Source of the DNA: Patescibacteria group bacterium
GTDB taxonomy: Bacteria; Patescibacteriota; Minisyncoccia; Phycocordibacterales; UBA918
Direction: 5' to 3'
Length of the DNA stretch: 64,000 nt
Assembly: GCA_018608435.1 (NCBI GenBank)
Contig: JABAZV010000006.1
Location: forward strand, 31,692-95,691
How positions within the stretch are numbered: position 1 is the first letter of the stretch; each line of letters opens with the position of its first letter. The notes below the pieces were generated by a model. That model made no database searches. It was not told where the DNA came from and saw only the letters and a program-made list of their open reading frames with translations. Positions 24,239 through 57,530 of this stretch are shown here, one piece after another. A program made the position numbers and the translations under genes.

Positions 24239-24248
24239 AGAATATAAA

Positions 24249-26479: not shown

Positions 26480-26487
26480 ACTTACAT

Positions 26488-26973
26488 ATGTCCTTTCTGC
26501 AGAGACTAAAAGGTAGGGGAGTACGTGATGGTGACGACACGCTTCTTTCTGATGCTGAAGAAACAGCCGTCGACAAGGTTGCTCAGCTCCATGTTGATGT
26601 TTACCAGACTGAGCGGATGATTGTGGTTTACGCACAATCTGCTGGCGCTGACATGAATGACGTTCACGTTTCAATTGAAGGTGATGCGGATATCGTTTTG
26701 ATTGAAGGTCGTCGTGTGCGACCTGAGTACATTGTTTTCCCGCGAAAAAAGGTCAAAGGAGCTTTTGCTGCCGAAGAGTGCGAGTGGGGCGAGTTTTACA
26801 GGCGAATTATTTTGCCTGAAAGCGTTGATATTGACCAGGCGGATGCAAAGATTAAAAACGGAGTTTTAATACTAATTTTACCCTTGCTAAAGCCGAGCGA
26901 AAAGGAAAAGGTTAATCTTAAGGTTACAGGCGGCCGTAAAGAAGGGAAGCGCAAGGTAGCAAAATCTACTTAA
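26488..26973 (+). CDS. Hsp20/alpha-crystallin family small heat-shock protein
   Basis: The alpha-crystallin domain has the motif AKIKNGVLILILP (A..nGvL.i..P). Size and charge distribution also fit. Confidence 0.85.
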   Translation: MSFLQRLKGRGVRDGDDTLLSDAEETAVDKVAQLHVDVYQTERMIVVYAQSAGADMNDVHVSIEGDADIVLIEGRRVRPEYIVFPRKKVKGAFAAEECEWGEFYRRIILPESVDIDQADAKIKNGVLILILPLLKPSEKEKVNLKVTGGRKEGKRKVAKST

Positions 26974-26991
26974 TATAGTTCTATTGTTCTT

Positions 26992-28651: not shown

Positions 28652-28692
28652 ACCGCACATCCAAATCGTTGGATGTGCGGTATACTTATAAT
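28652..28692 (+). promoter_or_regulatory. Perfect 13-bp stem hairpin (ACCGCACATCCAA-ATCG-TTGGATGTGCGGT) abutting a TATAAT box upstream of the 5599-aa gene; putative operator or attenuator
   Basis: I read this in the sequence. TATAAT lies at 28687..28692, 6 nt after the hairpin. The GTG start of the giant ORF is at 28737. Confidence 0.35.
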
Positions 28693-28736: not shown

Positions 28737-31700
28737 GTGAAAAAAAATAAGCCTCACAACTCAAGCGAAAATAAAAATAAGAGCATTTTTAAAGCACCAT
28801 TCGGGATTTTGCAGCTTATTAATGGTTTTAAATTGTCATTAAAATTTACTCTAGCTGTCGCTGTTGTATTTAGTTTGCTTTTACTGCAACCGCCTGATGT
28901 TCAATCAAAACGTTCGACAAACATTAGCTTTGGTTCAGATCAGACCATCAATATTTTTCCGTCACAAGTTGAAACGACAGATTGGGCTGGACTTAACAAC
29001 GTTCTTATTCAGGATTTGCCGAACGATGCTCTGTACCAAAACTTTGGTGCTCAGTCATCAGCTTATGTTCCTTTGGCCGATTTGTTCGTTCCACAAAATG
29101 GCGAGCCTGAATTGATCAATAGTCAAGTACAGCCGCAAGCAGACAGTTCATCTTCAGACGGTAGTCAGCCTGCTTTGCCAAATGGAACTTCTGCTGCTGA
29201 CGCTGCCGGTTTTGTCGAGAATGATGCTATAAGTCTTTCTGGTGATCAGTCGACATCAACTCAGTCTGAAGAAGTGTCAAATGAAATTTCTGATAATCCT
29301 GTAACAGAAAGTGATTCGTCAAATGCTGATGAGACAGTTGTTGCTGAACCTTTGCTCGATGATGTTCCTGAAAAAGATGATGGTTTTTCTGTTCAGTCGG
29401 AACCAGAATCTGATGAAAGTACTGCTGCTGATGTTTCTGAAATAGAAGAGGAGATTGTTGTCGAAAGCGAAGTGGAAGTTGTTGCTGAACCTGTTGAAGA
29501 TTCGACGGCTGAAACTGAATCTTCAGAACCTGAACCTTCAGCTGAGCCAGAAGAAGCGATTTCACTGATTGATATTTTGCACCCAAAGTACGGAGTTTTT
29601 TCTGTAACTTCACAACTCTTTCCACTTATGCAGCTGTCGTTTGTTAGTACCACGGAACCGGTTTTAGAAGAATCTACTCCCCTTGAAACTGATTCAGGAA
29701 ATATTGTTGATGTAGAAGAAGATCAACCACTTCCTGAAGAAGCAGCTCCTGAAGAAACATTTTCATCATCAATTGCAAACGAAGGAGTTGTAGAAGAGAT
29801 TGATCCTCTGTCGCTTTCTGATGAAGTAGTAGAGATTGATACGACAACTTCTACATCTGAAATTTTGAATACTGAGTCATCTTTAAACACAAAAAGTATA
29901 GAGTCTCCAGTGGCCGACGATACTTCTTCAGCTTTGCAAGATTCTCCTGTGACATCTAATTCTTCATTTTTACATGAGATTACTTTGTCTAACTTCGATA
30001 CAGCCCCGCTCGATCCTGGGCAGTTTGTCCAAGGTATGCAGCTTAGACTTTCACTTGCAGCCCAGCTTAATGATCCTGTTGCTGACGGCGAACAAGCACC
30101 ATACATAGAAATATTATTTGGGCAAGGTGAATCGCTTGAAACTGTCGGTATTATTTTGCTTGAAGATGAAGTGTCAAATGCACTTAATGGTGGCTATTTC
30201 CTCTTCGCTTTACCTGAACTTTATGACATTGACAATCTCGCCAGCACCACGGTTTCTGTGCGTTACATGGGAGAGGCTGATTTGCTTGATGGAATGTTCC
30301 TTGATGCTGCTTGGCTCGAGCTTGATACGAAAATTATTACAAAAGAAGACCTTGAAGCTCGAGGTAATGCCGCAGCGATTAAGAAACTTGATTTGCCAAC
30401 AGCTAGTACGCTTATAAGCGATCAGGTTAATTTCCGTCGCGACGAAACCCCAGTCTTCAACTTGCGCTATAACTCAAAAAGAAACACTGTTCTGCGTGGT
30501 TTGCGTGACCTTTTCGGAAGAGATTTAGTGGAAGTTGAATCGGCTCTCGTTAAGCACCGTGGGACAGGTTTGTTAGGGATCACACCAGAGATTAATATTA
30601 CAAATGATGGTTTGCTTACCGTATCAATTAATGAAAAAGATAGGAAAAAACTTCGTCCCGGTCAGTATACGGTTGAGATAACATACAAAGAAGGAGGCGA
30701 GACTATCATTGATACTTTTGATTTCCAGTGGGGAATATTAACTACTAATCCCAATAAGTCAGAATATGAAGTAGGTGAGACAGCACAGATTTCCGTTGGT
30801 GTTTTGACTCCTACTGGACACACTGTTTGTGATGCAAATCTAGACCTGTACGTCACCGATCCTGAAGGATTTGTGTCTCGCTACCTAGTCGATCCGTCAG
30901 GTTTATGTGATGGAAATAATGTTATTGACGTGCCTGATTTCAGCACTTTTGTTCCAGTGACAACTGCAGGTGTGTATGAGCTGTATTTGGAGAGACTGGA
31001 CGATGATGGTTCTGTTCTTGGTTTTACTACAGACACTTTCAATGCTGTGCCTCTACAACAAACAATCAGTATTGAACGTACTGGGCCAACTCGTATTTAC
31101 CCACTTGCTCCTTACACAATGAGCTTGAAGGTTGATTCGGCTGGTGATTTTGATGGAACTTTGACCGAGTATGTTCCAGCTTCTTTTGTGGTTTTTGATA
31201 CTGACGCTAGTGTAGAGCGTGAAGGTGAGTGGCTTAAATTAGTTTGGGATTTATCTGTTTCGGCTAGTGGTACGGAAACCATTAGCTATCAGTTTGATGC
31301 TCCGGATATTTCTCCCTACCTCTTTACTTTAGGGCCAGCGCGGCTTGATTCTAACGACGCATCTACAGCTTCAAGCACCGAAAAAACGGCTAGAAATAAC
31401 GTTTTCATTGAACATCGCCGTTGGCAGATCGCGTCTGACGCGGTTGGGAAGATGTTGCTCTTCTGGGATGACGGTGCTGCTATTCCGGCAGGCTGGGTTT
31501 GTGTTTCTTGTGCACCGGCTGATCCTTTTTATCAAAGGTTTATTATGGGTAGCTCAACTTACAACTCTACTGGTGGTGCGGCTACTCATACTCATACTAC
31601 TAGCGGATCCGTTCTGGCGTCACTTTTATCTACGACAGAGAGTGGGTCAGGTACCATAGCGCCAGTGAGCCATACTCACACCTACACTCCGACTATCAGT

Positions 31701-34700
31701 GGTGAATCAAATCTTCCGCCTTATCGTCAGTTACGCGTAATCCGCTACGACACCGCGGCAGGAGAGCCTGCAACGATTCCGGCTGGAGCGATTGGTATAT
31801 TTGATGTTGCGTCCTCATCACTTCCAGCTAATTGGAATCGTTACGGTGCGCAAGATGGCAGTTTCATTTACGGTGAAGACACCCCTGCTACCACAGGTGG
31901 TACAACTACTCACACTCATGGTATTTCTGGAACAACCGGCGCTTCAGCTGGAGCTGGCACGCGTGTTCGTGGTGGCGGAACACAGGTCTCGGGTGCTGGC
32001 AATACTCATACTCACACTGTTACTGCTAGTAGCGACTCTCACAGCAATGAGCCACCTTACATAACTGTCTTATTGGCGGAGCTTTCTGTCGATTCTGCGC
32101 CAACTAATGGACTAATTGCAATGTGGGACGAAGATATTGATGATGGCTGGTTAAGCTTGTCAGCCGACAGCGAAGCATTCAGCAACCGTTTTATTAAACC
32201 AACTACAACTTACGGTACGACCGGTGGAGGTGAAACTCATGATCATGCCGACGTTACTGGTATTACTTCAAGTGCTCCAAGCGCAACTCAAAATGCACGT
32301 TCTGGTTCTTCTGGTTCTGATGGCACGCACACTCACTCAGTAAGCGTTACCGGATTCTCAACTGAGTCAAACTTGCCGCCTTATGTAACTGTTGTCTTTG
32401 GCAAGCGACAGGGAACTAGTCCGGTTTACGAACAGCTTTCTTCTCGTTGGTACGCTAATAATGAATCAGCCCAAACACCGACCGAACCATGGCCAAACGA
32501 CGCTGGAGTAATTGATTTGGCAGAAGATGAGCCGATTACTGCTACCAGCTCACCGGTGAAAAATGGTGAAGAAGTTCGTTTGCGAATTAATGTTGGTGTT
32601 ACAAATGCTACTTCTACTGCAGGAGAGGAATTCCAGCTCCAATACACTGCGGCCAATATTTGTACAGACGGATCTGCGGTGTGGAGTGATGTTGGTGATG
32701 TAGCGTCTAGCACAGCTTTTTGGCGCGGTTATAATAATGTCAGTATTACCGACCATGGAACTCTCTCTTCTACGCTCCTTGCTTCATCAACCGTCGAGGC
32801 TACTTACGAAGAAAACGGCTACTCCACTACCACACCCAATGATATTAGTGTAGGTGAGTATGGCGAGTGGGATTTTGTCTTGCAACACAACGGTGCCTTA
32901 GCTGGCACAAATTACTGTTTCCGAATGGTTGAGAAAGCCGGTGCGACTTTCCAGAGCTACACGCAGTACCCACAAATTTACACCAACGAGTCACCAAACC
33001 AGCCAACCCTAAGTAAGTTATTTGATGCTGAAAAAACAGCTTCTACCTCTCCTTGGTTTTATTTCGTTGCCAGTGACACTGAAGGGGAAAACATTCATTA
33101 CGAAATAGAAATAGCTGACAATTATGCTTTCGCTTCACCAGCTGTTAGCAAAGACACCATTTCCAATTCTTCCCAATTTGAAAACCAACTTCTAATCTCT
33201 GATAAAGCTCCTTTCCGTCAGGGTGAATTAATGAAGTTTACTCCCAGTGCAAGCTTCACAAATGGCACGACTTATTATTGGCACGTGCGCGCTCGAGATC
33301 CTGAGGGGTCAGACGATTGGAGTGAGTGGTCAAGTATCAATAGCTTTACTATTGATACTGCGCTGACAGCTTCTGCTTGGTTCCAAACGGAAACAGAACA
33401 ATTTGACGAAAACATTCTCGACAGGGTCGACACCGCTACCGATCAGGCTGACATTGCGGCTGGTTCTACCACTGCCGCCATGACAGGAGGTTTGATAGAT
33501 TTCACCGATGGTGAAATGGGAACAGCTTGGGATAGTCTGACATTTAACGAAACCGACGGCAGTGGCGTACTCTTGTATCAAATCGAGTATTTGGATAATA
33601 GCGACACATGGACGCTGATTCCAGATGTCGACTTGCCAGGAAACAGTACGGGCTTTAACACTTCACCGGTAAACTTATTATCACTTGATGTTGAGACTTA
33701 TAATTCCATTCGAGTGGTGGCTGATTTTAGTGCTAATACTGGTACACCAAGTTTGCAAGACTGGACAATAAACTGGGGTTATCGAGTAGATACTCCGATG
33801 ATCGCGAGTCTTTTTGCTAACGAACAAACAGGCACGACAACACCGACATTAGAATTTACTACGACCGATCCACAGAACGACAGTCTGACTTATCAGCTGC
33901 AGTGGTCACTCACACCTGATTTTGCCGCTTCAACAACGCGTACATCTGATGCTGATGCTGGGTTTACAAATATCAACACCGGCGCTGATCTCGATCCGTT
34001 TAACTCTGGCGATACAATTCAATTTACCGTGCAAGCAGCCGATGCTCTGACTGGTTCAACCACTTACTGGTGGCGAGTGCGGGCAAAAGACACTACAGGG
34101 GATGATGCTTATTCCTTCTGGACTGACGCTCAGAGCTTTACTGTAATTCCTGGGACTGAAGTTTCTACTTGGTTCCAAACATCAGCTGATCAATTTAGTA
34201 GTAATATTCTCTCTGGTACTACACCAATTGGTATTGGTGCTGTAACAGTAGCGACTACAGCCGTAGAAGCGATGATTGTTTACGGAGAAGGTACGCTTAC
34301 GTCACCACGTTATCGTCAGTGGGATGGTACAAATCTTGGCGCTGAAGATTCAATGCAAGATATTGACTCACCGTTAAAGTGGGCTGTTGTGCGGGCTGCT
34401 CCAACGCGTGAAGAATATGTCGCAGCAACAGTCGGGACTGATGCCGACGTGAACGCTCAAGTATTTTCGACTGGTAGTTGGGAGAATTTACAGGAAATGA
34501 CTATCAGTGTCGGTAACATTAACGCTCGTGGTTTTGATGTGGCATACGAAACGCTCTCGGGTGACGCTCTGGTTGTGTACTGTGACGGCGACGCTGACCC
34601 TAGCTATTACGTTTGGAACGGAACTAGTTGGACTAGCGGCGGAACTATAAATCTTGCTAGTATAAATAACTGCGAATGGATAAAACTCGCTGCTGATCCT

Positions 34701-37700: not shown

Positions 37701-40700
37701 GGGCAAATTTTGTCGGTCGGTGCTAATTTCACCAATAGTATCGGCGGAGCTTCTACCACTTGGACCGGTTCGACGCTTTCGCTTGAAAATGGCGCTTACA
37801 GTATAAATACAAAAACAGACAACGGTGATGTTTACGAAACGTTACGCATCTCTGCAACAGCCGACGTTAAAATGTGGAATTCGAGCGCCGCTACTTATAA
37901 TGTTTTGACTGGCGGTTCGCTTTACTCTCAAGATCATACAGAAGTAGATGGAGAGCTCTACATCTTTGGTGCTTACGAAAATATTGGCGGTAATGAATAC
38001 TGGAGTTACGCTACTGATTTTGATGGAGCTGATTTGATTGCCTCAAGTAGCGAGCGGCAAGCACAAGTATATTTTGCGTCAGGCGGAAGTGCTTTGCTTA
38101 CAAACTCTTCGTTTGAAATGCTTGGAGACTCAACTGCTTCTTCTACTGTTCAGAATCAAGGTTCAGGTACATACGGTGTGACTGTAGAAAGCGGAACGAC
38201 AACAGCACAATATTATGAATTCAATAATCTCGGCGGCAGTGGCCTTAGCTTGCTCGACAGCTCAAATGTAATTTCGCTTCGAGACGGTTACTTTGAAGTG
38301 ACTGGTGTTGCTGGCACAGCTCTCACTCTTGCTTCGAGCACAATCGACGCAAATCCAGCGAAGCAAATTTACAACGTTACCTTTGCAACCAGCTCAGCTA
38401 TTTTTGCAAATAACGTTACACAATCTGGAGCAGCGCCGACTTCATACTGGTGGTTCCGCGACGGCTTCGGTAATCTTTACGGTGAAGCAAAAGACAACGA
38501 CTCTGGTGATCCTGGTTCTGTTCGGTTTGATGACAGTTCGCTCGTTCTTACTATTGCCGGAACCGTGTATACCGACGCTGGTACAACAGAGCTTACTGGT
38601 GGCACTTGCGACGGCGCTACTCCAGTAGTGCGAATAATGGTCGACGACGTTGAAGCGGCCAGGGTTTCGTGTAGCGCCGCCGACGGCAGCTACTCAGCAG
38701 CAGGAATAATTGTCATTGGCGATCCGACTATTACCGTTTACCTCGACAATGCTTCTGGCGGAGAGCAGGGAAGCGCGATCACTCGTACACCCACAGCAGA
38801 CATTGCCGATATGGATATTTATGCTAATCGCGTGATTGTGCGCAATGAAGATGCGGCCGCTCTTACAATTGAAAACTTGGCGGTCCTCGACAGTTCTGAC
38901 GATGCGGATCTCAACTACAGCGCAGCAACTTCAACTAGTGGCGACACGCTAAGTGTGGCTTCTGGTAACGAGTTGTTTGTCTGGGCGTCTTCCACCTTTA
39001 CTCCAAGTGGAGCGGTGACGCTTGCTGGCGAAGCGGCTGCTAATAGTTACGACGGCACTTTGTACTTAGCTGGCGACGCCACCTTTAATGCATACTCCAC
39101 TTCGACTGTAACAATTGGTGGACGGCTCGAGCTCGAGTCTGGTGCAGTCTTCAGTGCCGCTAGCACAACGGTCTTGATGAATGCAACCACAACTGGTAAG
39201 AGTATTACAGCGGTAGAAGAAGTTTCGTTTAACGAACTCGTCTTCGACGGTGTCGGTGGAGGCTGGAACTTGAGCGCCGACATTCGCGTGGCTGGAGATA
39301 TGACTATTACAAACGGCACCGTTACAGGAACTGGCGACATTTACATGGAAGCGGGTGGTTTGACTGGTAACGGAACATTGTCGCTCGGCGGCGGAACAAC
39401 TACGCTTGCAACCACCAACTCACTTGGCGGAAGTACAGCTTGGACTTTCTTTGACCTTACTTTAGGCGACGCAATTGCCGTTGGTACAACAACTCCATTG
39501 TTTACCAGTACCACCACCGTGTCAGGAAAACTGACTATTTCTGCTGCTCATTATCTAGATGCAGGTAATACGGCATGGGACTTGGCAGGTTCAGGAACAG
39601 TGTTTGAGGAGAGTGGAACTTTCTTGGAAGACACGAGTACGATTCGTTACAGCGGCGCGAATGCTGACGTACTCGACGCACAATACTATAATCTGACCTT
39701 AGACGCGGGCGCCGGATCAGCTACTTATACAGCGGTAACAGCTGGGCTGATTGTCGACAACGACTTAGTGATTGGTGGCACAGCCAACACGACTTTTGAT
39801 CTTAATGCTAATAACGTTTGGTTCGATGTAAACGCCGATGTGTTTGTGGGCAGCAACGGCACGCTTTCAGCTAGTGCTGGGAACAACTTCACGATTGCTG
39901 GAAGTTATGATAATGACGGCACTTTCACAGCTAATGGCGGAACACTAACTTTTGACGGAGCTGGAACAATCGACATCGCTGCTGGCACTAGCGACTTTAA
40001 TAATCTTGAAGTGATAGCAACAGGTGATGTAACTTTCTCTGAAAGTGCAACTTCTTCTGATCTTTTTACTCTCACTGCGGCCAATTCCTTTACTCTTGCA
40101 AGTGGTGAAACACTGGCTGTCGGCGGAGCGTTCTACTCGGCGCTGGCTGACGGAGATACGACTTGGACCGGCACAACTCTTCGACTTTATGGTGGCAATA
40201 ATTACAGCCTCGGTGCAGCTACTTCGTCTGATTCATACGCTACGCTCGACATCGACGACACAACGCAAATTCGTATGTGGAACTCAGACGCATTAGTTTA
40301 CGATGTTGCTCCAACCGCTTCACTTTATTCTCAAGATCACGCTGGTGTCGACGGCGACTTGTATATCTGGGGCGATTACAACCAAACTTCTGCCAATGAT
40401 TACTGGAGCTTCGCCACTGATTTTGACGGTACAGCACTTGGCTTAGCAACACGTAAAGTTGATGTTTACATCAATAGTGGTTCAAGCGTCACTTACACCA
40501 ATGGTTCGCTCTCAGTGATCGGAGATTCGGCTGCTTCAACTACAATTCAAAATCAAGGTTCAGGAACTTACAGTCTTACTATTGGCGGTACTGCAACTAC
40601 TGAGTTTAATTATTACGAAATACGCGACATTGATATAGTTGGTCTTTTGCTCACAGGCACACCGACAATTACTTCGCTTTCGTACGGTGATATCGAAGTT

Positions 40701-43700
40701 TCGCAAACTGGCGGCTCTGGTATTACTGTTGGTGGTTCTGTTATTACCCAAAATCCAGCTAAGAACTTTACCCAAAATCGGTTCGCTCGTAACGGCGCTG
40801 CTTCAGGCTTTGGTGTCACTGCGACTGGTACGAGCGTGAGTTCGTGGCGCTTCGCAAATCATACTGGCGATATTTCGGGCGAAAGTTTTGACGTCGATCC
40901 TGATGGCGATCCTGGTTACGTGGCTTGGGATGATTCAGCTGCTTTAATTACAATTTCTGGTGTCGTGTACAGCGATGAAGGAAGTACAGTTTCAGCTATT
41001 TGTGACGGTTCGACCAACAACATTGTTTTGCGCGTAGCAGGAATCACAACTTACACTTCGAGCTGTAACGCGACGACTGGAGTGTACAGTGTGACCAGCG
41101 TTTCGTACGGCGCGAGCGATTCGCTTGTCGCTTTCATCGACGGCGAAGCGGTTGAGGGAACGACGGTTTCAAAGGAACCAATTTCAAACATTGGTAACTT
41201 TGATATCTACGAAAATCGAGTTATCGTCCGCCACGAAGACGTGAATCCGATCACCATTGCTGACATGGCTGTGTGGGATTCTTCAGACGATGCCGACATT
41301 TTGTTTACAGCAGTCGATGCAGGAAGTGACACTCTTACACTGCCAGCCGACACGAAGTTGATTATCTGGAACGGAAAAACTTTTGCACCAGCAGGCGACG
41401 TTACTCTTTCAGGTGGCGGAGCAGGCGCTGTATATGACGGAACGCTGGAGCTTTACGACAACGCAGTTTGGTCTGGCACAGGGACCGAGTCGATCGACAT
41501 TGGCGGCAGCTTGATTTCAGGTACCGGTGCGATCTTTACCGCTGGTAACGGAACTACAACTTTTACAACAGTTGATGCTGGCCGAACGATAGGTGTGAAC
41601 GAAGCTGGTTTCTACAACCTTACTGTTACTGGATCGGGTGATCTTACTTTCACTGACTCCACGCTCACTGTCCTTGGCGATTATGCACAAACAGCCGGAA
41701 CAGTTACTCTCCCGTCTGCTACTTCTACTTTCTCTGGATCTTTCACAAACAGTGGCACAAGCTTCGACGCAAACGACGGCTTTGCTTACTTCACAGGCTC
41801 TGGAACGCATAGTGTTGCGCTTGGCGGATCAGACTTAGCACTAGTAGAATTCGCTGGCGGCACTTACGTGTGGAGTGATACAGATGCAACTACAACCAAA
41901 TCTATCCTTATTTCTAGCGGTAGTTTGACACTGCCAAGCGGCAAGCTTACAGTCGGCGGCAACTTTGAAAACGTAGACGGAACACTTGCACACAATACCT
42001 CTGAACTTGTCTTTACTGCCTCCACGACAGCTTTTCTTTTAGCTTCAAGTTCAGATTTGTACGAAGTGAGGTTTGTCGGTGGCGGTGACTACACGCTGGT
42101 AGATGAAGGTCTGGCGTTGCTCGACAGCCTTACAGTTTCGAGCGGAACTCTTGCTTTGGCTTCAGGCACGCTTTCAATCGGCGGTAGCTTCGACGCTTCG
42201 GGCGGTAGCTTCGACCACGCTTCAGGCACTATCCTGTTCAACTCTGCTGATACGGGAGAATTTATCGATGCTGGCACGAGCGATTTCTACGCAGTACAAA
42301 TAAGCGCTCCGACCGGCGGCTACACTCTCATCGGCAGCGCTACTACTACAAACAATTTCACTTTGGCTGCGGCTAATACTTTCGTCGCTCAATCAGGCAG
42401 TTCGCTCGTGGTTGAAGGAGTGTTTACTAACCTTGTCGGCGGAACAAATACTACTTGGTCTGGCAGCACTCTCACACTTGCTGGTCAAAACACTTACACC
42501 GTAAACACAAAAATAAACGGTGGCGATAATTACGACACGCTCGTTCTGGGGGCAAATAGTGACATTCGCTTGTGGGATTCTGCTGCGACCACTACTACTG
42601 TGGCGAATAATTCATCACTATATTCACAAGATAACAACTCCGTTGACGGCGCGCTCAACATTTATGGCGACTTCCATATCGCAACTACAACCGAGTATTG
42701 GAGCTACGCAACTGACTTCGATGGTACTGATCTTTCTGGCGGTAGCGAGCGCATGGTAACTGTTTCGCACGCAACCAGCGCAACCACTACTTTAGATGGC
42801 GGAACATTACAGATAGTTGGAGTCAGTGGAAATGAGACCCTTATAACTAATCAAGGTTCTGGTACGTTCGATATGGGAGTTGAAGCAGGAACTTTTACTG
42901 CAAACTATTATCAATATCGTAATCTTGCTTCTGCTGGACTAGCTCTTTCGGGCACTCCGGTCATTACTTCGCTTTCTTACGGCGACTTTGAGCTGGCAGT
43001 CTCTGGCGGCAGTCTCATTACTCTTTCATCTACCACGCTCAACGCCAATGCGTCGCTTATAATTACTGGCAATAGTTTTGCTACGACATCAGCCATCACA
43101 GGGAACAACGTTACTCTCACGGGTAGTACAAGCAACGCTTGGACATTCGTCTCGCACTCAGGCAATCTAGATGGCGAAAATTACGATGCTGACGGCGCGA
43201 CCGCTTGTGGACAGATTCGCTGGAACGACAGCGCTTGTTTGCTCACCCAGCAAACTAATTACCGCTGGCGTAATGATGACGGAGGCCTTGGAGTAGACAG
43301 TGACGAATGGTACAGCGCGAGTTGGGCAGCGCGGCAATATGTACGAGTGCAAAATGCCGACGCCACGACTTATGCCGACGCAGTGGTTAAGATGACTGTT
43401 CCTTATGATGGAGATATGCAATCAGACTTCGATGATCTGCGCGTTACTTCAGGCGATGGAACAACACTGCTTTCACACTGGATCGGAGCTTCGACTGCCG
43501 CAACTGAAGCTGAGCTATGGGTAAAAATTCCAACTCTCACAGCAGAAGCTGTCACTGACCTTTATCTTTATTACAATAATCCAACTGCCACCAGTACCGC
43601 TTCCAGCACAGCTGTCTTTATCGCAGTCGATGACTTTGAAGACAATGACATAAATGAATATTCTGGCCAAACAAGTCTCTTTAATGTCGGTACTAGCTTT

Positions 43701-45536
43701 AATTACGACGGCAGTTATGGTCTCGACAACTCCGGTAGCGAATCAGGTCGAGCCAACACAGGTGGTATTTATAGATTCGATCAAACTGTTAGTCAGGGAG
43801 AAACCTTTAGTTATCAGCAGTATGTAGACACCAGTGCTGGTACAAGTGACGAAGTATGTACTATGTTTGGTGTTCAATCACCAGGTTCTACCAATCTAAA
43901 TTATGCTATTTGTCTTGAGCAGTTTGGAGTAGACAGAATTTCACTGGTGAAAGACGTAGTTGACAATGATGCCTCTGGAACAATTATTGCATCATCAACA
44001 GTAACCTTCACAACTGGCTGGTACAACATCGAAGTTGATTGGGACACAGACGATTCTTTCAATGTGTCATTGTTCAATCCATCTGGCAGCGAAGTGGCAA
44101 ACTTCACCGGATCAGACAGTACATATACTTCAGGAGGATACGGCTTCACTTTCTGGTTCCATAATGGTGGCTGGGACAGTGTCCATTCACGTCCAATCAT
44201 TACTACGACACCAACGGTGCAGCTTGGCTCAGAACAGGTTGATGGTGGAGCTAGTTGGAATGCTACTCAAAATACCCTTGGTATATACGAAGTAAATGAC
44301 ATCGCGCGTTTACGTCTTTCAGTCGAGAATTCTGGCTTGGCTATCACTAACCAACAGTACCGACTCGAATACGCTGCACTAGATTCTGCTCCTAGTTGTG
44401 AGGCTGTTGATACGTCTGATTATGTAGCCGTACCAGTACAGGCAAGTTGTGGAACTTCACCGCTTTGTATGCAAAGTTCAACTCAGGCAACAAACGGAGC
44501 AGCTACAGCCGAACTCCTGACAAATGTATCTGGTACTTTTACAGCGGGTGAAGTAAGAGAAGATCCTTCAAACACTACTGGGAATATTGACATCGACCAA
44601 GACTTTTACACTGAGTTAGAGTATGCCGTTACTCCAACTGAAAATGTCGTGGACCAAAATCTTTGTTTGCGAGTTACTAACAGTGGCACCGATCTTGACA
44701 CCTACCTTAAAGTCGCCCAGCTTGTATTGCGTTTTGATCCGACATTAGGTGCTATTACATTTAATGACGGTTTGCCTATTTCTCTTGTCCCAGGTACGAC
44801 TACTTTGGTTTATGCAACAGGAACCGTAACCGACCTCAACGGCTTTGCCGATTTGGTGCTGGCGAGTTCTACTTTCTATCGTAGCGGTGTGGCTGGCGGC
44901 GCAGCTTGTACTCTTGATAATAACAATTGTTACTCTTCAACTCTGTCTAATAGCTGTGCGTTTACAAACTGTTCAGGTAACAGCTGTGTCTTGGAATGTA
45001 CAGCCGAAGTTTATTATCACGCTGATCCAACTGATTCTGGGAGTACCTTTGAAGGACAAGAATGGTTGGCGTTTCTTGAAGTTGAAGACACGGGTGGTGG
45101 CTACGACTTTGGCTCAGGGCTTGGTATAGAAATGAACACTCTCCGCGCTATTGATGTTATTGGTGCGATTGATTATGGCGCTTTGGCTGTAAACTCTGAC
45201 ACTGCTGCTTACAACGCTTCTACTTCTGTATTAAACTACGGAAACGTGGAGGTTGACCTCGAAGTGTATGGTTCGGATTTGTCTGATGGATTGAGCTCTG
45301 TCATCCCGGCTGATCAACAAAAATTTGCTACCAGTACATTTACTTATTCTTCTTGTGGCCTGAGTTGTTCTTTGCTCTCAAGTACTTCGCCTTTGTCTCT
45401 CGATGTTGATCTGACCAAGCCGACCACTAACGCTCCGCCGGTAGAAGACGAAGTGTACTGGGGAATAGCGGTTCCGATTGGAGTCAATAGCGTTCCTCAC
45501 CAAGGAATTAACGTCTTTACTCCAGTTAGTCCATAA
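28737..45536 (+). CDS. Giant cell-surface protein (5599 aa): N-terminal signal anchor, acidic low-complexity region, three phage tail-collar (MDP-like) domains, FN3-like domains, a six-bladed WNGTxW repeat propeller-like region, a long beta-helix region including three tandem ~800-aa super-repeats, and a DUF2341/LamG-like C-terminus
   Basis: This is a single uninterrupted ORF. The tail-collar motifs are GGAATHTHTTSG...SNLPPYRQLRVIRY, GGTTTHTHGISG...NTHTHTVT...SNEPPYITVLLAEL and GGGETHDHADVTG...THTHSVSVTGF..SNLPPYVTVVFGKR. The FN3 region includes TYYWHVRARDPEGSDDWSEWSS. The repeat YYVWNGTSWTSG recurs six times at about 50-aa spacing. The beta-helix modules repeat GTVT(L/F)PxxxxTxxGSFxxxGGSFxHxxGT. 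The DUF2341-like region is DLRVTSGDGTTLLSHWIGAST..AELWVKIPTL....DLYLYYNNPTA. Confidence 0.9.
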   Translation: MKKNKPHNSSENKNKSIFKAPFGILQLINGFKLSLKFTLAVAVVFSLLLLQPPDVQSKRSTNISFGSDQTINIFPSQVETTDWAGLNNVLIQDLPNDALYQNFGAQSSAYVPLADLFVPQNGEPELINSQVQPQADSSSSDGSQPALPNGTSAADAAGFVENDAISLSGDQSTSTQSEEVSNEISDNPVTESDSSNADETVVAEPLLDDVPEKDDGFSVQSEPESDESTAADVSEIEEEIVVESEVEVVAEPVEDSTAETESSEPEPSAEPEEAISLIDILHPKYGVFSVTSQLFPLMQLSFVSTTEPVLEESTPLETDSGNIVDVEEDQPLPEEAAPEETFSSSIANEGVVEEIDPLSLSDEVVEIDTTTSTSEILNTESSLNTKSIESPVADDTSSALQDSPVTSNSSFLHEITLSNFDTAPLDPGQFVQGMQLRLSLAAQLNDPVADGEQAPYIEILFGQGESLETVGIILLEDEVSNALNGGYFLFALPELYDIDNLASTTVSVRYMGEADLLDGMFLDAAWLELDTKIITKEDLEARGNAAAIKKLDLPTASTLISDQVNFRRDETPVFNLRYNSKRNTVLRGLRDLFGRDLVEVESALVKHRGTGLLGITPEINITNDGLLTVSINEKDRKKLRPGQYTVEITYKEGGETIIDTFDFQWGILTTNPNKSEYEVGETAQISVGVLTPTGHTVCDANLDLYVTDPEGFVSRYLVDPSGLCDGNNVIDVPDFSTFVPVTTAGVYELYLERLDDDGSVLGFTTDTFNAVPLQQTISIERTGPTRIYPLAPYTMSLKVDSAGDFDGTLTEYVPASFVVFDTDASVEREGEWLKLVWDLSVSASGTETISYQFDAPDISPYLFTLGPARLDSNDASTASSTEKTARNNVFIEHRRWQIASDAVGKMLLFWDDGAAIPAGWVCVSCAPADPFYQRFIMGSSTYNSTGGAATHTHTTSGSVLASLLSTTESGSGTIAPVSHTHTYTPTISGESNLPPYRQLRVIRYDTAAGEPATIPAGAIGIFDVASSSLPANWNRYGAQDGSFIYGEDTPATTGGTTTHTHGISGTTGASAGAGTRVRGGGTQVSGAGNTHTHTVTASSDSHSNEPPYITVLLAELSVDSAPTNGLIAMWDEDIDDGWLSLSADSEAFSNRFIKPTTTYGTTGGGETHDHADVTGITSSAPSATQNARSGSSGSDGTHTHSVSVTGFSTESNLPPYVTVVFGKRQGTSPVYEQLSSRWYANNESAQTPTEPWPNDAGVIDLAEDEPITATSSPVKNGEEVRLRINVGVTNATSTAGEEFQLQYTAANICTDGSAVWSDVGDVASSTAFWRGYNNVSITDHGTLSSTLLASSTVEATYEENGYSTTTPNDISVGEYGEWDFVLQHNGALAGTNYCFRMVEKAGATFQSYTQYPQIYTNESPNQPTLSKLFDAEKTASTSPWFYFVASDTEGENIHYEIEIADNYAFASPAVSKDTISNSSQFENQLLISDKAPFRQGELMKFTPSASFTNGTTYYWHVRARDPEGSDDWSEWSSINSFTIDTALTASAWFQTETEQFDENILDRVDTATDQADIAAGSTTAAMTGGLIDFTDGEMGTAWDSLTFNETDGSGVLLYQIEYLDNSDTWTLIPDVDLPGNSTGFNTSPVNLLSLDVETYNSIRVVADFSANTGTPSLQDWTINWGYRVDTPMIASLFANEQTGTTTPTLEFTTTDPQNDSLTYQLQWSLTPDFAASTTRTSDADAGFTNINTGADLDPFNSGDTIQFTVQAADALTGSTTYWWRVRAKDTTGDDAYSFWTDAQSFTVIPGTEVSTWFQTSADQFSSNILSGTTPIGIGAVTVATTAVEAMIVYGEGTLTSPRYRQWDGTNLGAEDSMQDIDSPLKWAVVRAAPTREEYVAATVGTDADVNAQVFSTGSWENLQEMTISVGNINARGFDVAYETLSGDALVVYCDGDADPSYYVWNGTSWTSGGTINLASINNCEWIKLAADPVSDEIVLMARDSDGTAAASYELQVWNGTAWGNSSTQGGARNTAYETMALKYEESGGQLLSVSGDGNPARFEYNSWNGTAWAGNANDSTIADNIIWAELTRDEGTDNMTMCYVDESVAIGAINWTGAAWSGQIDLDATGNAIDDKAVSCVYESTTGRDGNLMTVYSDATNSRYRVWNGVTWSAEASVSTITDVSTIQTIRTGIGGILGLFYDDVNDAISFSDWNGSAWSAEQTVETNGSVDTVPYGQPFFMAPRNPGGEGTVVVSPALNFDDGNGPYWKTFSWNDVQPGTSEILYHLQYQTATGSWAFIPDVDLPDNVAGTSTGPYDLSLLNTGIYDTIRPYAELTCDGSGNCPELQDWKVEWAGGIVISGTAALYDETTALNSGTVAVAVNGVLQVGKTANISAGAWSITNVTTFPSDVVTVFITGAADSGEAVAVSRYDGQGDMSGMDLFERHLTLGSNDATTTPLTNADIGLYDFTNTEDIFFDLSGATLTMCADAGCSDAELYVQAGTYYEPAGAFVAHDFENNGYFTAGAYTHEINGSWDNNATTTMTGSTVVFAATSTTESVDNTGAVTPTFDNIRFGTTTGNGTWTLESELDVNGDLIVDNGTLARGTTSMLVAGDLTTGTSGFWSGIGTTTFDGADAANWSDQNAVIQNVGNVVVDGTNKVVILAGDAAAESIIIGADDTLDVSVSNYDLTVYGDWTNQNNFLARAGTVFFAATSSGQAITSAGDAFYDLSFVGINGGWSFIDTALLVNNDFAVATGTVTLPTATTTIDGSFDSTGGSFAHNNGTLLFTSDAAENITLDGDDFTNVTNNLIFDGAGTWNMLDVNATSTGNVTVSQGTVNFPSGTLAIGGSLTDDGGTFVGGTGTARFYSAGTETVTTGGSSFNNLTFDGAGDWSFVDTNSTIAGDLLVLQGTTTFPTGNLLIGGSYQNAATVDANSGTVTFDSADTGEAIDFGNSALYDVSFTSVSGGWTITAVATTTNNFSLVAGSDFTLDSGQILSVGANFTNSIGGASTTWTGSTLSLENGAYSINTKTDNGDVYETLRISATADVKMWNSSAATYNVLTGGSLYSQDHTEVDGELYIFGAYENIGGNEYWSYATDFDGADLIASSSERQAQVYFASGGSALLTNSSFEMLGDSTASSTVQNQGSGTYGVTVESGTTTAQYYEFNNLGGSGLSLLDSSNVISLRDGYFEVTGVAGTALTLASSTIDANPAKQIYNVTFATSSAIFANNVTQSGAAPTSYWWFRDGFGNLYGEAKDNDSGDPGSVRFDDSSLVLTIAGTVYTDAGTTELTGGTCDGATPVVRIMVDDVEAARVSCSAADGSYSAAGIIVIGDPTITVYLDNASGGEQGSAITRTPTADIADMDIYANRVIVRNEDAAALTIENLAVLDSSDDADLNYSAATSTSGDTLSVASGNELFVWASSTFTPSGAVTLAGEAAANSYDGTLYLAGDATFNAYSTSTVTIGGRLELESGAVFSAASTTVLMNATTTGKSITAVEEVSFNELVFDGVGGGWNLSADIRVAGDMTITNGTVTGTGDIYMEAGGLTGNGTLSLGGGTTTLATTNSLGGSTAWTFFDLTLGDAIAVGTTTPLFTSTTTVSGKLTISAAHYLDAGNTAWDLAGSGTVFEESGTFLEDTSTIRYSGANADVLDAQYYNLTLDAGAGSATYTAVTAGLIVDNDLVIGGTANTTFDLNANNVWFDVNADVFVGSNGTLSASAGNNFTIAGSYDNDGTFTANGGTLTFDGAGTIDIAAGTSDFNNLEVIATGDVTFSESATSSDLFTLTAANSFTLASGETLAVGGAFYSALADGDTTWTGTTLRLYGGNNYSLGAATSSDSYATLDIDDTTQIRMWNSDALVYDVAPTASLYSQDHAGVDGDLYIWGDYNQTSANDYWSFATDFDGTALGLATRKVDVYINSGSSVTYTNGSLSVIGDSAASTTIQNQGSGTYSLTIGGTATTEFNYYEIRDIDIVGLLLTGTPTITSLSYGDIEVSQTGGSGITVGGSVITQNPAKNFTQNRFARNGAASGFGVTATGTSVSSWRFANHTGDISGESFDVDPDGDPGYVAWDDSAALITISGVVYSDEGSTVSAICDGSTNNIVLRVAGITTYTSSCNATTGVYSVTSVSYGASDSLVAFIDGEAVEGTTVSKEPISNIGNFDIYENRVIVRHEDVNPITIADMAVWDSSDDADILFTAVDAGSDTLTLPADTKLIIWNGKTFAPAGDVTLSGGGAGAVYDGTLELYDNAVWSGTGTESIDIGGSLISGTGAIFTAGNGTTTFTTVDAGRTIGVNEAGFYNLTVTGSGDLTFTDSTLTVLGDYAQTAGTVTLPSATSTFSGSFTNSGTSFDANDGFAYFTGSGTHSVALGGSDLALVEFAGGTYVWSDTDATTTKSILISSGSLTLPSGKLTVGGNFENVDGTLAHNTSELVFTASTTAFLLASSSDLYEVRFVGGGDYTLVDEGLALLDSLTVSSGTLALASGTLSIGGSFDASGGSFDHASGTILFNSADTGEFIDAGTSDFYAVQISAPTGGYTLIGSATTTNNFTLAAANTFVAQSGSSLVVEGVFTNLVGGTNTTWSGSTLTLAGQNTYTVNTKINGGDNYDTLVLGANSDIRLWDSAATTTTVANNSSLYSQDNNSVDGALNIYGDFHIATTTEYWSYATDFDGTDLSGGSERMVTVSHATSATTTLDGGTLQIVGVSGNETLITNQGSGTFDMGVEAGTFTANYYQYRNLASAGLALSGTPVITSLSYGDFELAVSGGSLITLSSTTLNANASLIITGNSFATTSAITGNNVTLTGSTSNAWTFVSHSGNLDGENYDADGATACGQIRWNDSACLLTQQTNYRWRNDDGGLGVDSDEWYSASWAARQYVRVQNADATTYADAVVKMTVPYDGDMQSDFDDLRVTSGDGTTLLSHWIGASTAATEAELWVKIPTLTAEAVTDLYLYYNNPTATSTASSTAVFIAVDDFEDNDINEYSGQTSLFNVGTSFNYDGSYGLDNSGSESGRANTGGIYRFDQTVSQGETFSYQQYVDTSAGTSDEVCTMFGVQSPGSTNLNYAICLEQFGVDRISLVKDVVDNDASGTIIASSTVTFTTGWYNIEVDWDTDDSFNVSLFNPSGSEVANFTGSDSTYTSGGYGFTFWFHNGGWDSVHSRPIITTTPTVQLGSEQVDGGASWNATQNTLGIYEVNDIARLRLSVENSGLAITNQQYRLEYAALDSAPSCEAVDTSDYVAVPVQASCGTSPLCMQSSTQATNGAATAELLTNVSGTFTAGEVREDPSNTTGNIDIDQDFYTELEYAVTPTENVVDQNLCLRVTNSGTDLDTYLKVAQLVLRFDPTLGAITFNDGLPISLVPGTTTLVYATGTVTDLNGFADLVLASSTFYRSGVAGGAACTLDNNNCYSSTLSNSCAFTNCSGNSCVLECTAEVYYHADPTDSGSTFEGQEWLAFLEVEDTGGGYDFGSGLGIEMNTLRAIDVIGAIDYGALAVNSDTAAYNASTSVLNYGNVEVDLEVYGSDLSDGLSSVIPADQQKFATSTFTYSSCGLSCSLLSSTSPLSLDVDLTKPTTNAPPVEDEVYWGIAVPIGVNSVPHQGINVFTPVSP
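31480..32410 (+). other. Three consecutive phage tail-collar / microcystin-dependent-protein-like domains inside the 5599-aa ORF
   Basis: The motifs are quoted in the 5599-aa ORF entry. The coordinates are approximate. Confidence 0.7.
37700..43250 (+). repeat. Three tandem, diverged ~2.3-kb intragenic repeats (units beginning about 37760, 40165 and 42455; the third is shorter) encoding homologous ~800-aa beta-helix super-modules
   Basis: The protein-level alignment holds across all three units. Each begins TTW(T/S)GSTLxLxxGxxYxxxxxxxxxDxYxTLxxxxxxxxxxWxSxAxxxxVxxxxSLYSQDxxxVDGxLxIxGxxxxxxxxxYWS(Y/F)ATDFDGxxL. QNQGSGT(Y/F) recurs a fixed distance downstream. The unit boundaries are approximate. 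Confidence 0.6.
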
Positions 45537-47286: not shown

Positions 47287-47340
47287 AAAGCAACTGGCGT
47301 TGCTTTTTATCCGATTCCGGCGCGAGCCGGAAATTCCCGA
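47282..47340 (+). terminator. Tandem hairpins after the FN3 gene (13-bp perfect stem GATAAAAAGCAAC-TGGC-GTTGCTTTTTATC, then TTCCGGC-GCGA-GCCGGAA)
   Basis: I read this in the sequence. The second hairpin is followed by ATTCCCGATTTCGTTT. Confidence 0.6.
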
Positions 47341-57527: not shown

Positions 57528-57530
57528 AGA

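What the first reader, a model, noticed from the sequence alone, without database searches (positions are those of the whole stretch)
28737..45536. A 5599-aa surface giant combining three phage tail-collar domains, a novel WNGTxW six-blade repeat, beta-helix super-repeats and a DUF2341/LamG end
This is a single 16.8-kb ORF. It has an N-terminal signal anchor and a ~300-aa Asp/Glu/Ser-rich tract. Three consecutive domains carry the GG..THTH...N(L/E)PPY signature of phage tail-collar / microcystin-dependent-protein domains, which are receptor-binding tips. FN3 domains follow. Then comes a repeat of six units at ~50-aa spacing around (Y/F)xxWNG(T/V/S)xW(S/T/A)x, which I cannot place in a known family. 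About 3000 aa of GTVTLPxxxTxxGSF...GGSFxHxxGT beta-helix modules follow, and then a DUF2341-like domain (DLRVTSGDGTTLL...ELWVKIPTL...LYLYYNNPTA) and LamG-like domains. The architecture reads as a giant adhesin or host-attachment fibre that borrows phage receptor-binding modules.
Basis: partly seen in the sequence, partly recalled or inferred. Interest (0 to 1): 0.75.

Follow-up and report, generated by a model that had tools for sequence, protein, structure and literature searches.

The report
Giant surface fibre of an ultrasmall bacterium
This is a real, conserved 5,599-residue cell-surface protein of a Patescibacteria (CPR) bacterium; its modules include a single-chain, three-fold copy of a phage tail-fibre tip and an eight-bladed lectin-like propeller, so it is most likely a host-attachment fibre, a kind already suspected for this phylum.

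Summary
The 16.8-kb ORF (28737..45536, +) is real. Colinear orthologues of 5,515-6,510 aa exist, and 12 independent Patescibacteria MAGs carry it uninterrupted in conserved synteny, so it is not an assembly artefact.

The interpretation needs correcting:
- The three "tail-collar domains" do not hit Pfam Collar. They form one ~340-aa triple module that always occurs as a triplet. It is distantly related to trimeric phage fibre tips with HxH motifs (SU10 gp16, C24) and also occurs in phage tail proteins (PHROG 5795, phiAsp2 Pas28/29). I read it as a probable single-chain pseudo-trimer.
- The WNG region is an eight-bladed, not six-bladed, beta-propeller (pLDDT 91). It belongs to a widespread family with no Pfam hit in the local copy, and many members are fused to type IV pilin N-termini. 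Among solved structures its fold resembles PLL-type lectins.
- The beta-helix and LamG calls could not be verified.

My best reading is a membrane-anchored, multi-lectin host-attachment fibre. Giant DUF2341 proteins are already reported in Patescibacteria, so interest is moderate.

The parts
28737..45536 (+). Giant ORF, 5599 aa, GTG start
   Evidence: Full-length colinear orthologues are P0253 (5625 aa, 53% id over aa 856-5598), P0235, P0256, P0327 and P0252. The ORF is uninterrupted in 12 MAG loci.
28815..28901 (+). N-terminal hydrophobic signal anchor (aa ~27-55)
   Evidence: This is the only strongly hydrophobic segment: windows above KD 1.6 otherwise occur only marginally at aa 1830-1831, and the peak is 2.04. 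Orthologues have equivalent hydrophobic N-termini. Whether it is cleaved was not tested.
29124..30026 (+). Asp/Glu/Ser-rich low-complexity tract (aa ~130-430)
   Evidence: Composition. This region is poorly conserved in orthologues (27-29% id).
31416..32435 (+). Triple HxH module (aa 894-1233) made of three tandem repeats of about 105 aa: R1 31443-31754, R2 31764-32102, R3 32109-32411. Each repeat has PxGW, GG..HxH, HxH and N.PPY.
   Evidence: AF2 gives pLDDT 84.5 and pTM 0.80 for the whole unit. All 12 His are conserved in 23-29 of 27-29 homologues. All but a few truncated homologues of the 28 carry the triplet. The single-repeat profile hits SU10 gp16 at E 0.005 on both HxH pairs and tail fibre 9qgo at E 0.007. 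PHROG tail families hit at E 4e-4. BFVD gives Pas28/Pas29 at E 1e-13.
33003..33419 (+). FN3/Ig-like domain, copy 1 (aa 1423-1561)
   Evidence: It matches copy 2 at 35% id, E 6e-18. Ig_Rha78A_N scores 33.1 bits against a 27.4 cut-off.
33495..33815 (+). Unassigned ~105-aa domain 'X', copy 1 (aa 1587-1693)
   Evidence: It matches aa 2255-2363 at 33% id, E 8e-16. No Pfam hit.
33795..34211 (+). FN3/Ig-like domain, copy 2 (aa 1687-1825)
34269..35456 (+). Eight-bladed beta-propeller (aa 1845-2240). The W(N/T/D)G motif ends the second strand of each blade, and blades 1-2 are degenerate.
35499..35825 (+). Domain 'X', copy 2 (aa 2255-2363)
35856..37436 (+). Partial super-repeat pre-unit (aa 2374-2900) with ~75-aa sub-repeats
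   Evidence: It matches the tail halves of the later units. Autocorrelation peaks at lag 75 with z 3.1.
37437..39836 (+). Super-repeat unit A (aa 2901-3700)
   Evidence: No Pfam or PDB match to its profile.
39837..42128 (+). Super-repeat unit B (aa 3701-4464)
42129..43256 (+). Super-repeat unit C, head half only (aa 4465-4840)
   Evidence: It is 43-48% id to the heads of units A and B. This half followed by DUF2341 is a common combination in Patescibacteria proteins of 1100-1400 aa.
43425..43655 (+). DUF2341 (PF10102) domain (aa 4897-4973)
   Evidence: E 9.8e-18, 64.8 bits against a 23.4 cut-off.
44334..45533 (+). Cys-rich conserved C-terminal module (aa ~5200-5599, 12 Cys)
   Evidence: Composition. 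It is colinear to the last residue in orthologues, with a conserved ...KPT...YWG.xVP.G...H.G.N.F end. It is also present at the C-terminus of P0002 and P0239.
26488..28542 (+). Conserved upstream neighbours: HSP20 (26488-26973) and a cohesin-domain/DUF4381 protein (26992-28542)
   Evidence: Pfam. The cohesin-domain protein lies upstream of the giant ORF in all 12 orthologous loci and HSP20 in 11 of the 12.

Best explanation
The gene encodes a cell-anchored extracellular fibre of a Patescibacteria (Paceibacteria-like) bacterium. It most likely attaches the cell to glycans on a partner cell or surface.

Proposed mechanism:
- The protein is exported. It is held in the membrane by its single N-terminal hydrophobic helix. 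[The helix is shown; export and retention are inferred.]
- A ~300-aa acidic, disordered tract acts as a spacer through the wall. [inferred]
- Ig/FN3-like domains and three ~800-aa super-repeats form a long stalk. [The repeats are shown; the fold is inferred.]
- Several binding modules are spaced along this stalk.

Binding module (i) is a ~340-aa unit built from three tandem copies of an HxH fibre-tip repeat. Its homologues in phage are homotrimeric receptor-binding tips in which three HxH pairs bind a metal ion. I infer that here the three copies fold within one chain into a pseudo-three-fold body, with two six-His metal sites.

Binding module (ii) is an eight-bladed propeller. Elsewhere its sequence family is displayed on type IV pilin N-termini. 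Among solved structures its fold resembles PLL-type fucose lectins. I infer glycan binding.

Binding module (iii) is DUF2341 plus a Cys-rich C-terminal module. Its function is unknown, but it recurs in surface proteins of this phylum.
For: The gene is real and conserved:
- Colinear orthologues run to the C-terminus.
- It is uninterrupted in 12 MAGs.
- The cohesin-domain protein precedes the giant ORF in all 12 loci and HSP20 in 11 of them.

Anchor: there is a single N-terminal hydrophobic segment and no other TM candidate.

HxH module:
- The compact AF2 model has pTM 0.80.
- Nearly all full-length homologues carry the triplet, and each repeat is closer to its positional counterpart than to its sister repeats.
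- All 12 His are conserved.
- The profile hits SU10 gp16 exactly on His194/196 and His230/232, and also tail fibres 9qgo and C24. All of these are deposited as three chains.
- The SU10 paper states that these His pairs may bind Fe2+, as in T4 and JUB59 (PMC9509320).
- P0027, a phage protein with the triplet, lies between a tail-fibre gene and an endolysin and hits PHROG 5795 at E 2.5e-26.
- BFVD gives Pas28/29 at E 1e-13 and a 'tail collar domain containing protein' at prob 0.94.
- The family has 6425 cluster representatives, 977 of them at E<=1e-30. It usually matches as one stretch, including in many proteins of 5,500-7,200 aa.

Propeller:
- AF2 gives pLDDT 91.
- 25 of 81 aligned homologues have a canonical G|FSxxE prepilin motif. 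Others are labelled PilV or hit N_methyl.
- One such homologue sits beside another pilin gene.

Precedent:
- In Saccharibacteria TM7x the propeller-bearing minor pilin PilX2 resembles PLL lectins and is needed for efficient host binding (PMC11623550).
- Giant Patescibacteria proteins with DUF2341 have been proposed as adhesins (PMC11809585).
Against: - There is no experimental or ligand evidence for any module.
- Sequence links to solved phage tips are marginal (E 0.005-0.007), and Pfam Collar does not hit.
- Propeller fold matches are generic. WD40-like 8-bladed proteins score as well as lectins, and identity is <=14%.
- About 60% of the protein has no assignable fold: aa 430-893, the super-repeats, and the region after DUF2341.
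- The partner organism is unknown, and the window gives no direct evidence of episymbiosis.
Confidence: 0.6

Rival explanations
1. It is a structural envelope or matrix protein, such as an S-layer-like coat, a sheath or a biofilm scaffold. On this reading its lectin-like modules bind the cell's own wall polymers rather than a host.
For: It is very long and repetitive, rich in Thr/Ser/Gly, and has a single anchor. It is a conserved single-copy gene in fixed synteny across genera, which suggests a housekeeping-like role. The stalk-like super-repeats have no binding signature.
Against: The identifiable modules are those used elsewhere at the tips of phage fibres and on pilins. The propeller cassette is duplicated or lost between orthologues, which is more typical of adhesins under diversifying pressure.
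Confidence: 0.15
2. It is a polysaccharide-capture scaffold belonging to a cellulosome-like surface complex. It would hold insoluble glycans for neighbouring glycoside hydrolases, with the adjacent cohesin and dockerin proteins assembling the complex.
For: The cohesin-domain protein lies directly upstream in all 12 loci, and the dockerin-domain protein lies upstream in six of them. The window also encodes GH18, GH26 and a 2160-aa GSDH/PKD/polysaccharide-deacetylase protein. The propeller resembles lectins.
Against: No dockerin, cohesin, CBM or catalytic domain is detected in the giant itself. The Cohesin and Dockerin hits in the neighbours are weak (E 1e-6 to 8e-6).
Confidence: 0.15
3. It is a contact-dependent effector-delivery exoprotein of the FhaB/CdiA type. 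The long repeats would form a filament and the C-terminus would be a toxin.
For: Giant Patescibacteria proteins have been compared with FhaB (PMC11809585). The repeat region is long and beta-rich in composition.
Against: The C-terminus is conserved to the last residues among orthologues rather than polymorphic. No toxin, TPS or pre-toxin domain is detected in Pfam or NCBIfam. No immunity-like small ORF follows; the next gene is a 528-aa fn3 protein.
Confidence: 0.05
4. It is a prophage or phage-derived tail fibre gene, or an assembly chimera joining phage and host DNA.
For: The HxH module is related to phage tail proteins.
Against: No phage genes flank it. The same chromosomal neighbourhood recurs in 12 MAGs from different samples. 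The ORF is colinear over >4,500 aa with orthologues. GC content is only mildly higher than in the flanks.
Confidence: 0.03

Closest known systems
HxH receptor-binding tips of phage tail fibres: SU10 short tail fibre gp16 (7z47), JUB59 C24 (6ov6), tail fibre 9qgo, T4 gp37 tip (2xgf)
   Different: The phage tips are homotrimers of one chain. Here three diverged copies lie in tandem in one chain, inside a 5,599-aa cellular protein. Sequence similarity is marginal (E 0.005-0.37).
Phage tail proteins with the same triple module: PHROG 5795, Actinoplanes phage phiAsp2 Pas28/Pas29, and metagenomic phage protein P0027
   Same: The whole ~340-aa triple unit aligns: Foldseek E 1e-13, prob 1.0, TMq 0.53-0.56. 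P0027 matches the query at E 1.7e-5 and PHROG 5795 at E 2.5e-26.
   Different: These are virion tail components of 400-1300 aa encoded next to tail-fibre and lysis genes. They are not anchored cellular giants.
Pfam Collar (PF07484) / microcystin-dependent-protein family
   Same: BFVD hits include proteins named 'tail collar domain containing protein' (E 0.013, prob 0.94).
   Different: The query gives no HMM hit at E<=10. Only 1 of 29 homologues hits, at E 0.032 and below threshold.
PLL-type propeller lectins (PLL 5c9o, BP39L 6gxr, CV39L 6gxs) and propeller-bearing pilus adhesins (Saccharibacteria PilX2, Pseudomonas PilY1)
   Different: This propeller has eight blades rather than seven. Identity is <=14% and there is no Pfam hit. 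In the giant it is internal to a non-pilin protein. Homology to PilX2 itself was not tested because I had no sequence for it.
Giant (>4000 aa) Patescibacteria surface proteins with FhaB/DUF2341 domains (PMC11809585)
   Same: Same phylum, same size class and same DUF2341 domain, with the same proposed role in adhesion or host interaction.
   Different: That paper found no full-length homologues for its own giants. This protein has a conserved, syntenic orthologue family, and its HxH and propeller modules are not described there.

Membership tests
Pfam Collar (PF07484, phage tail collar domain) | HMM match at or above the gathering score | tested here: not met
   The query gives no hit at E<=10. 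Among 29 family members, one hit at E 0.032.
HxH metal-binding phage fibre tips (T4 gp37 / SU10 gp16 / C24-like) | Paired, conserved HxH motifs in each subunit | tested here: met
   There are two HxH per repeat, and all 12 His are conserved in 23-29 of 27-29 homologues. They align to gp16 His194/196 and His230/232.
HxH metal-binding phage fibre tips (T4 gp37 / SU10 gp16 / C24-like) | Statistically significant sequence or fold similarity | tested here: inconclusive
HxH metal-binding phage fibre tips (T4 gp37 / SU10 gp16 / C24-like) | Three-fold assembly with His6-coordinated Fe/Zn ions | not testable with these tools
   The evidence is indirect: three tandem copies are always present together and the model is compact (pTM 0.80).
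Beta-propeller fold | Radially arranged four-stranded antiparallel blades | tested here: met
BNR / sialidase propellers | Asp-box SxDxGxTW repeats and a BNR/sialidase HMM match | tested here: not met
PLL-like lectin propellers | Seven blades and a family HMM match | tested here: not met
Type IV pilins | N-terminal prepilin motif G|F(T/S)xxE followed by a hydrophobic helix | tested here: not met
   The giant's N-terminus lacks the motif. It is present in 25 of 81 propeller homologues, not in the giant.
DUF2341 (PF10102) | HMM match above the gathering score | tested here: met
   64.8 bits against a 23.4 cut-off, E 9.8e-18.
Laminin_G_3 / LamG (PF13385, PF02210) | HMM match, or similarity to a LamG-bearing relative | tested here: not met
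   No Pfam hit at E<=10. There is no BLAST similarity to the LamG region of P0201, and the C-terminal profile finds nothing in the PDB. The fold itself was not tested.
Right-handed beta-helix (Pfam Beta_helix and relatives) | HMM match or a predicted solenoid fold | tested here: inconclusive
   Neither the query nor a 14-sequence profile gives a Pfam or PDB hit. Homologues carry no beta-helix annotation. A ~75-aa sub-repeat exists.
fn3 (PF00041) / FN3-like Ig domains | HMM match | tested here: inconclusive
   fn3 itself does not hit. The FN3-like Ig_Rha78A_N passes its cut-off (33.1 against 27.4 bits), while Ig_J_second and Pur_ac_phosph_N fall below theirs.
Giant Patescibacteria DUF2341 surface proteins | >4000 aa, Patescibacteria origin, DUF2341 domain | tested here: met
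   The protein is 5599 aa. The closest relatives are all Patescibacteria MAGs at up to 74% id. DUF2341 is present. The class is described in PMC11809585.

The most novel reading that the evidence does not exclude
The ~340-aa HxH unit is a single-chain pseudo-trimer of a phage receptor-binding tip. It would be a whole trimeric fibre tip, with its two His6 metal sites, encoded as three fused repeats. Episymbiotic Patescibacteria and phages would draw on the same module pool to recognise cell-surface glycans. If so, the specificity of ultrasmall bacteria for their hosts could be read and engineered in the same way as phage host range. The widespread family (about 6,400 cluster representatives), which has no match in Pfam, would then be a new class of monomeric 'trimer-mimic' adhesin domains.
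Probability: 0.35. Interest if true: 0.7.

Novelty: new variant of a known kind. Interest (0 to 1): 0.5.

Why it matters
Patescibacteria form a very large phylum of ultrasmall, mostly uncultivated bacteria that live attached to other microbes. How they recognise a host is largely unknown beyond type IV pili in Saccharibacteria.

This protein is a conserved, syntenic giant. It combines a phage-fibre-tip-like module with a propeller that relatives display on pilins, which makes it a concrete candidate for the attachment apparatus in Paceibacteria-like lineages. Two expressible domains follow from this work: aa 894-1233 and aa 1841-2250. Both can be tested on glycan arrays and on candidate host cells.

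The fused-trimer reading of the HxH module, if confirmed, would also interest phage structural biology and protein engineering, because it would give a monomeric scaffold with the geometry of a fibre tip.

Giant DUF2341 adhesin-like proteins have already been noted in this phylum, and none of the functions above has been shown.

Tried and rejected
- NCBIfam gave no hit on the whole protein.
- Pfam at E<=10 on the HxH region, the propeller and the N-terminal 900 aa gave nothing.
- PDB sequence searches found nothing meaningful. These covered the C-terminal 799 aa, aa 430-893, aa 1234-1840, the super-repeat profile and the C-terminal profile. The best hit was E 0.05, to a GH74 blade.
- An exact-match look-up of the downstream fn3 protein, meant to identify the source contig, found nothing on record.
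- The viral-contig scans failed. Alignment A2 was too divergent for pattern design, and P0027 gave no confirmed relative.
- The afdb50 fold library was unavailable, so I searched BFVD instead.
- I looked for a 25-aa coil period as a beta-solenoid signature. Only the ~75-aa period stands out, so the beta-helix call stays open.
- I tried to tie the post-DUF2341 region to LamG through P0201, which has DUF2341 followed by Laminin_G_3. There is no similarity.
- I considered and rejected an assembly artefact and a prophage origin.
- I could not resolve what PF26696.1 is. It is a precomputed hit on two propeller homologues.
Full report
**1. The observation**

The window contains a single ORF at 28737..45536 (+) with a GTG start, encoding 5599 aa. 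A GAAAGGG Shine-Dalgarno-like motif lies about 12 nt upstream, and a hairpin follows the preceding gene.

- The tract at aa ~130-430 is acidic and Ser/Thr-rich. Residues 201-400 are 28% D+E and 1% K+R.
- There are six HxH motifs and three PPY motifs between aa 951 and 1216.
- There are six W(N/T)GxxW motifs at roughly 50-aa spacing between aa 1960 and 2215.
- The DLRVT... DUF2341 signature is present.

A Kyte-Doolittle scan finds one strong hydrophobic segment, at aa 27-55. This fits an N-terminal signal anchor.

Chunked self-BLAST shows the following internal repeats:
- The three HxH units are 35-38% identical to each other.
- An FN3-like pair lies at 1423-1561 and 1687-1825.
- A second duplicated domain lies at 1587-1693 and 2255-2363.
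- Super-repeats of about 800 aa lie at 2901-3700, 3701-4464 and 4465-4840, preceded by a partial unit at 2374-2900. They are 36-48% identical.

**2. Is the ORF real?**

Yes.
- A scan of one genome per GTDB species with the HxH region returned 12 loci. All are from Patescibacteria MAGs (Pacebacteria/Paceibacterota, Parcubacteria, Kaiserbacteria, Elulimicrobium and several labelled Saccharibacteria), at 48-74% identity.
- In every locus the match lies in a reading frame that stays open to the end of the fetched DNA, up to 4,877 codons.
- Six of the loci are colinear with the window protein over about 3,500-4,500 aa at 45-63% identity.
- The exhaustive representative search recovered full-length proteins: P0253 (5625 aa, 53% id over aa 856-5598), P0235 (5649 aa), P0327 (5714 aa), P0252 (5997 aa) and P0256 (6229 aa). 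These are colinear to the last residues, and P0253, P0235 and P0327 carry all three YSQD super-repeat marks.
- Gene order is conserved. The cohesin-domain protein precedes the giant in all 12 loci and HSP20 in 11 of them. The dockerin-domain protein is detected upstream in six loci and the WxLIP-like protein in four.

The 'assembly artefact' refutation therefore fails, and so does a prophage origin.

**3. Domain annotation by HMM**

Pfam finds only two things in the giant:
- DUF2341 at aa 4897-4973, E 1e-17.
- An FN3-like Ig_Rha78A_N match in the duplicated domain around aa 1500-1540.

Collar, Beta_helix, Laminin_G and fn3 give no hit, and neither does any propeller family, even at E<=10. NCBIfam finds nothing.

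**4. The HxH region**

*Homologues.* A word-seeded search found 28 homologues. They include ~500-aa secreted proteins, DUF2341-HxH proteins, Bacteroidota proteins with a T9SS tail, and ~410-aa proteins without a signal peptide. In the alignment, all but a few truncated entries carry three tandem repeats. All 12 His are almost invariant.

*Order of the repeats.* Repeat 1 of the query is 41-49% identical to repeat 1 of homologues. It is only 28-38% identical to repeats 2 and 3. The triplication is therefore old and its order is fixed.

*Model.* AlphaFold2 on this alignment gives a confident compact model for the whole 340 aa (pLDDT 84.5, pTM 0.80). Low confidence is confined to the loops between the HxH pairs.

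*Links to solved phage structures.* A profile of single repeats hits the following:
- the receptor-binding domain of the phage SU10 short tail fibre gp16 (E 0.005), with both HxH pairs aligned;
- tail fibre 9qgo (E 0.007);
- the JUB59 C24 tip (E 0.37).

Each of these is deposited as three chains. The SU10 paper states that gp16 His194/196 and His230/232 may bind Fe2+, as in T4 and JUB59 (PMC9509320). C24 is described as a receptor-binding protein resembling the T4 long-tail-fibre tip (PMC11821841).

*Links to phage proteins with the same triplet.*
- PHROG tail families hit at E 4e-4 and 9e-4.
- One homologue, P0027, lies on phage contigs between a tail-fibre gene and an endolysin. It matches PHROG 5795 'tail protein' at E 2.5e-26.
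- Foldseek against BFVD aligns the whole module to Pas28 and Pas29 of Actinoplanes phage phiAsp2 (E 1e-13, prob 1.0). It aligns more weakly to a tail fibre protein and to 'tail collar domain containing' proteins.

*Spread of the family.* The family is very large: 6,425 cluster representatives at E<=1e-3 and 977 at E<=1e-30. It usually matches as one ~350-aa stretch.

*Conclusion.* The three units are one module, a fused triple copy of an HxH fibre-tip repeat shared by phages and cellular surface proteins. The three-fold packing and the two His6 metal sites are my inference from homology and the model statistics. I could not inspect coordinates.

**5. The WNG region**

*Model.* AlphaFold2 on an 82-sequence alignment gives pLDDT 91 and pTM 0.89. 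DSSP shows eight groups of four strands. The W(N/T)G motif ends the second strand of blades 3-8. Blades 1 and 2 carry the degenerate motifs YRQWDGTNLG and QVFSTGSWEN. A ~100-aa autocorrelation peak is stronger than the 50-aa one, which suggests four two-blade units.

*The family.* The sequence family can be placed: 134 homologues were found.
- Most are ~560-aa proteins.
- 25 of the 81 I aligned have a canonical prepilin G|FSxxE motif.
- Several are labelled PilV or hit N_methyl.
- The N-terminus of the family profile matches pilins in the PDB.
- One Saccharimonadales member lies near another pilin gene.

*Precedent.* In TM7x the propeller-bearing minor pilin PilX2 resembles PLL-type lectins and is needed for efficient host binding (PMC11623550). 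PilX2 is described as heptabladed with RCC1 repeats, so I treat it as an analogue. Homology was not tested.

**6. The rest of the protein**

*Super-repeats.*
- A 14-sequence profile finds nothing in the PDB or Pfam.
- Almost all named homologues come from Patescibacteria, and most carry no Pfam annotation other than DUF2341.
- Only a ~75-aa sub-period is detectable.

A beta-solenoid is plausible from the G/T/N-rich motifs but is not shown.

*C-terminal regions.* The region after DUF2341 shows no LamG signal. The last ~400 aa are Cys-rich and conserved to the C-terminus in orthologues. This argues against a polymorphic toxin tip.

*Variation between orthologues.* Three loci carry two FN3-propeller cassettes. 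Two full-length orthologues lack WNG arrays.

**7. Interpretation**

The best-supported reading is an N-terminally anchored extracellular fibre. It carries several putative glycan-binding modules on a long repetitive stalk and is used for attachment to a partner cell or surface (confidence about 0.6).

- Shown: the gene is real and conserved; the anchor-like segment; the modular anatomy; the propeller fold; the family relationships.
- Inferred: surface exposure, the pseudo-trimer with metal sites, glycan binding and host attachment.
- Rivals: a structural envelope protein; a cellulosome-like glycan-capture scaffold, which the conserved cohesin and dockerin neighbours and nearby GH genes suggest; an FhaB/CdiA-like effector; a phage-derived gene.

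**8. Novelty**

Giant Patescibacteria proteins with DUF2341 have been reported and proposed to mediate adhesion (PMC11809585). The kind is therefore known.

New here:
- a conserved syntenic orthologue family;
- the recognition that the 'three collar domains' are one triple module shared with phage tail proteins;
- the link between the eight-bladed propeller and pilin-fused relatives.

I rate it a new variant of a known kind, of moderate interest. It has a more interesting but unproven reading: the single-chain trimer mimic shared between phages and episymbionts.

Noticed in passing
window 22669-28542 (+); loci L006-L017: A gene cluster lies upstream of the giant: a WxLIP-like protein (22669-23763), a small ORF (23738-24238), a dockerin-domain protein (24360-26258), HSP20 (26488-26973) and a cohesin-domain/DUF4381 protein (26992-28542). 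The cohesin-domain protein recurs in all 12 orthologous loci and HSP20 in 11. This may indicate a cohesin-dockerin surface assembly linked to the giant.
   Followed up: partly
window 28655-28690: An inverted repeat, ccgcacatccaaatcgttggatgtgcgg, is followed by a T-rich stretch. It lies between the cohesin gene and the giant ORF. It looks like a terminator, which would mean the giant gene may have its own promoter.
   Followed up: no
window 6409-12891 (+): A second large surface protein of 2160 aa combines a glucose/sorbosone-dehydrogenase propeller, PKD, Big_7 and two polysaccharide deacetylase domains. The window also encodes GH18, GH26, a CAP protein and a lamin-tail-domain protein, so this region is rich in secreted or surface proteins.
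   Followed up: no
L003 9065-10324 (phage contig, Logan SRR30502310): A 419-aa phage protein consists almost entirely of the triple HxH module. It lies between a tail-fibre gene and an endolysin, on a contig that also encodes a methyltransferase-bearing protein of more than 2,700 aa. The fused-trimer module is therefore used in virions as well.
   Followed up: partly
L013, L015, L016 (orthologous giants): The FN3-propeller cassette is duplicated, giving two WNG arrays about 1,100 aa apart. Full-length orthologues P0269 and P0258 have no WNG array. The propeller is therefore a gain-and-loss module within the family.
   Followed up: partly
P0017, P0018, P0020 (homologues): These ~575-aa secreted proteins have DUF2341 directly followed by the triple HxH module. 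The same two modules thus co-occur in small proteins, which hints at a functional link between DUF2341 and the HxH unit.
   Followed up: no
P0007-P0013, P0019 (homologues): These ~500-aa triple-HxH proteins start with a signal resembling SipW/TasA-type or archaeal-type signal peptides (...A.F.D.E.S...). They end with a domain similar to the giant's duplicated domain 'X' (aa 1587-1693 and 2255-2363).
   Followed up: no
P0059, P0065 (propeller homologues): These carry a precomputed Pfam hit, PF26696.1, which the local Pfam copy did not reproduce and I could not identify. It may be a recently curated family covering this propeller or a neighbouring domain.
   Followed up: partly
window 45700-51977 (+) and 54261-59069 (-): Downstream of the giant lie a 528-aa double-fn3 protein, an unknown 523-aa protein and a MacB-like ABC/FtsX pair. 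On the opposite strand lies an AcrB/HlyD-type pair, which is unusual equipment for a presumed single-membrane Patescibacteria cell.
   Followed up: no
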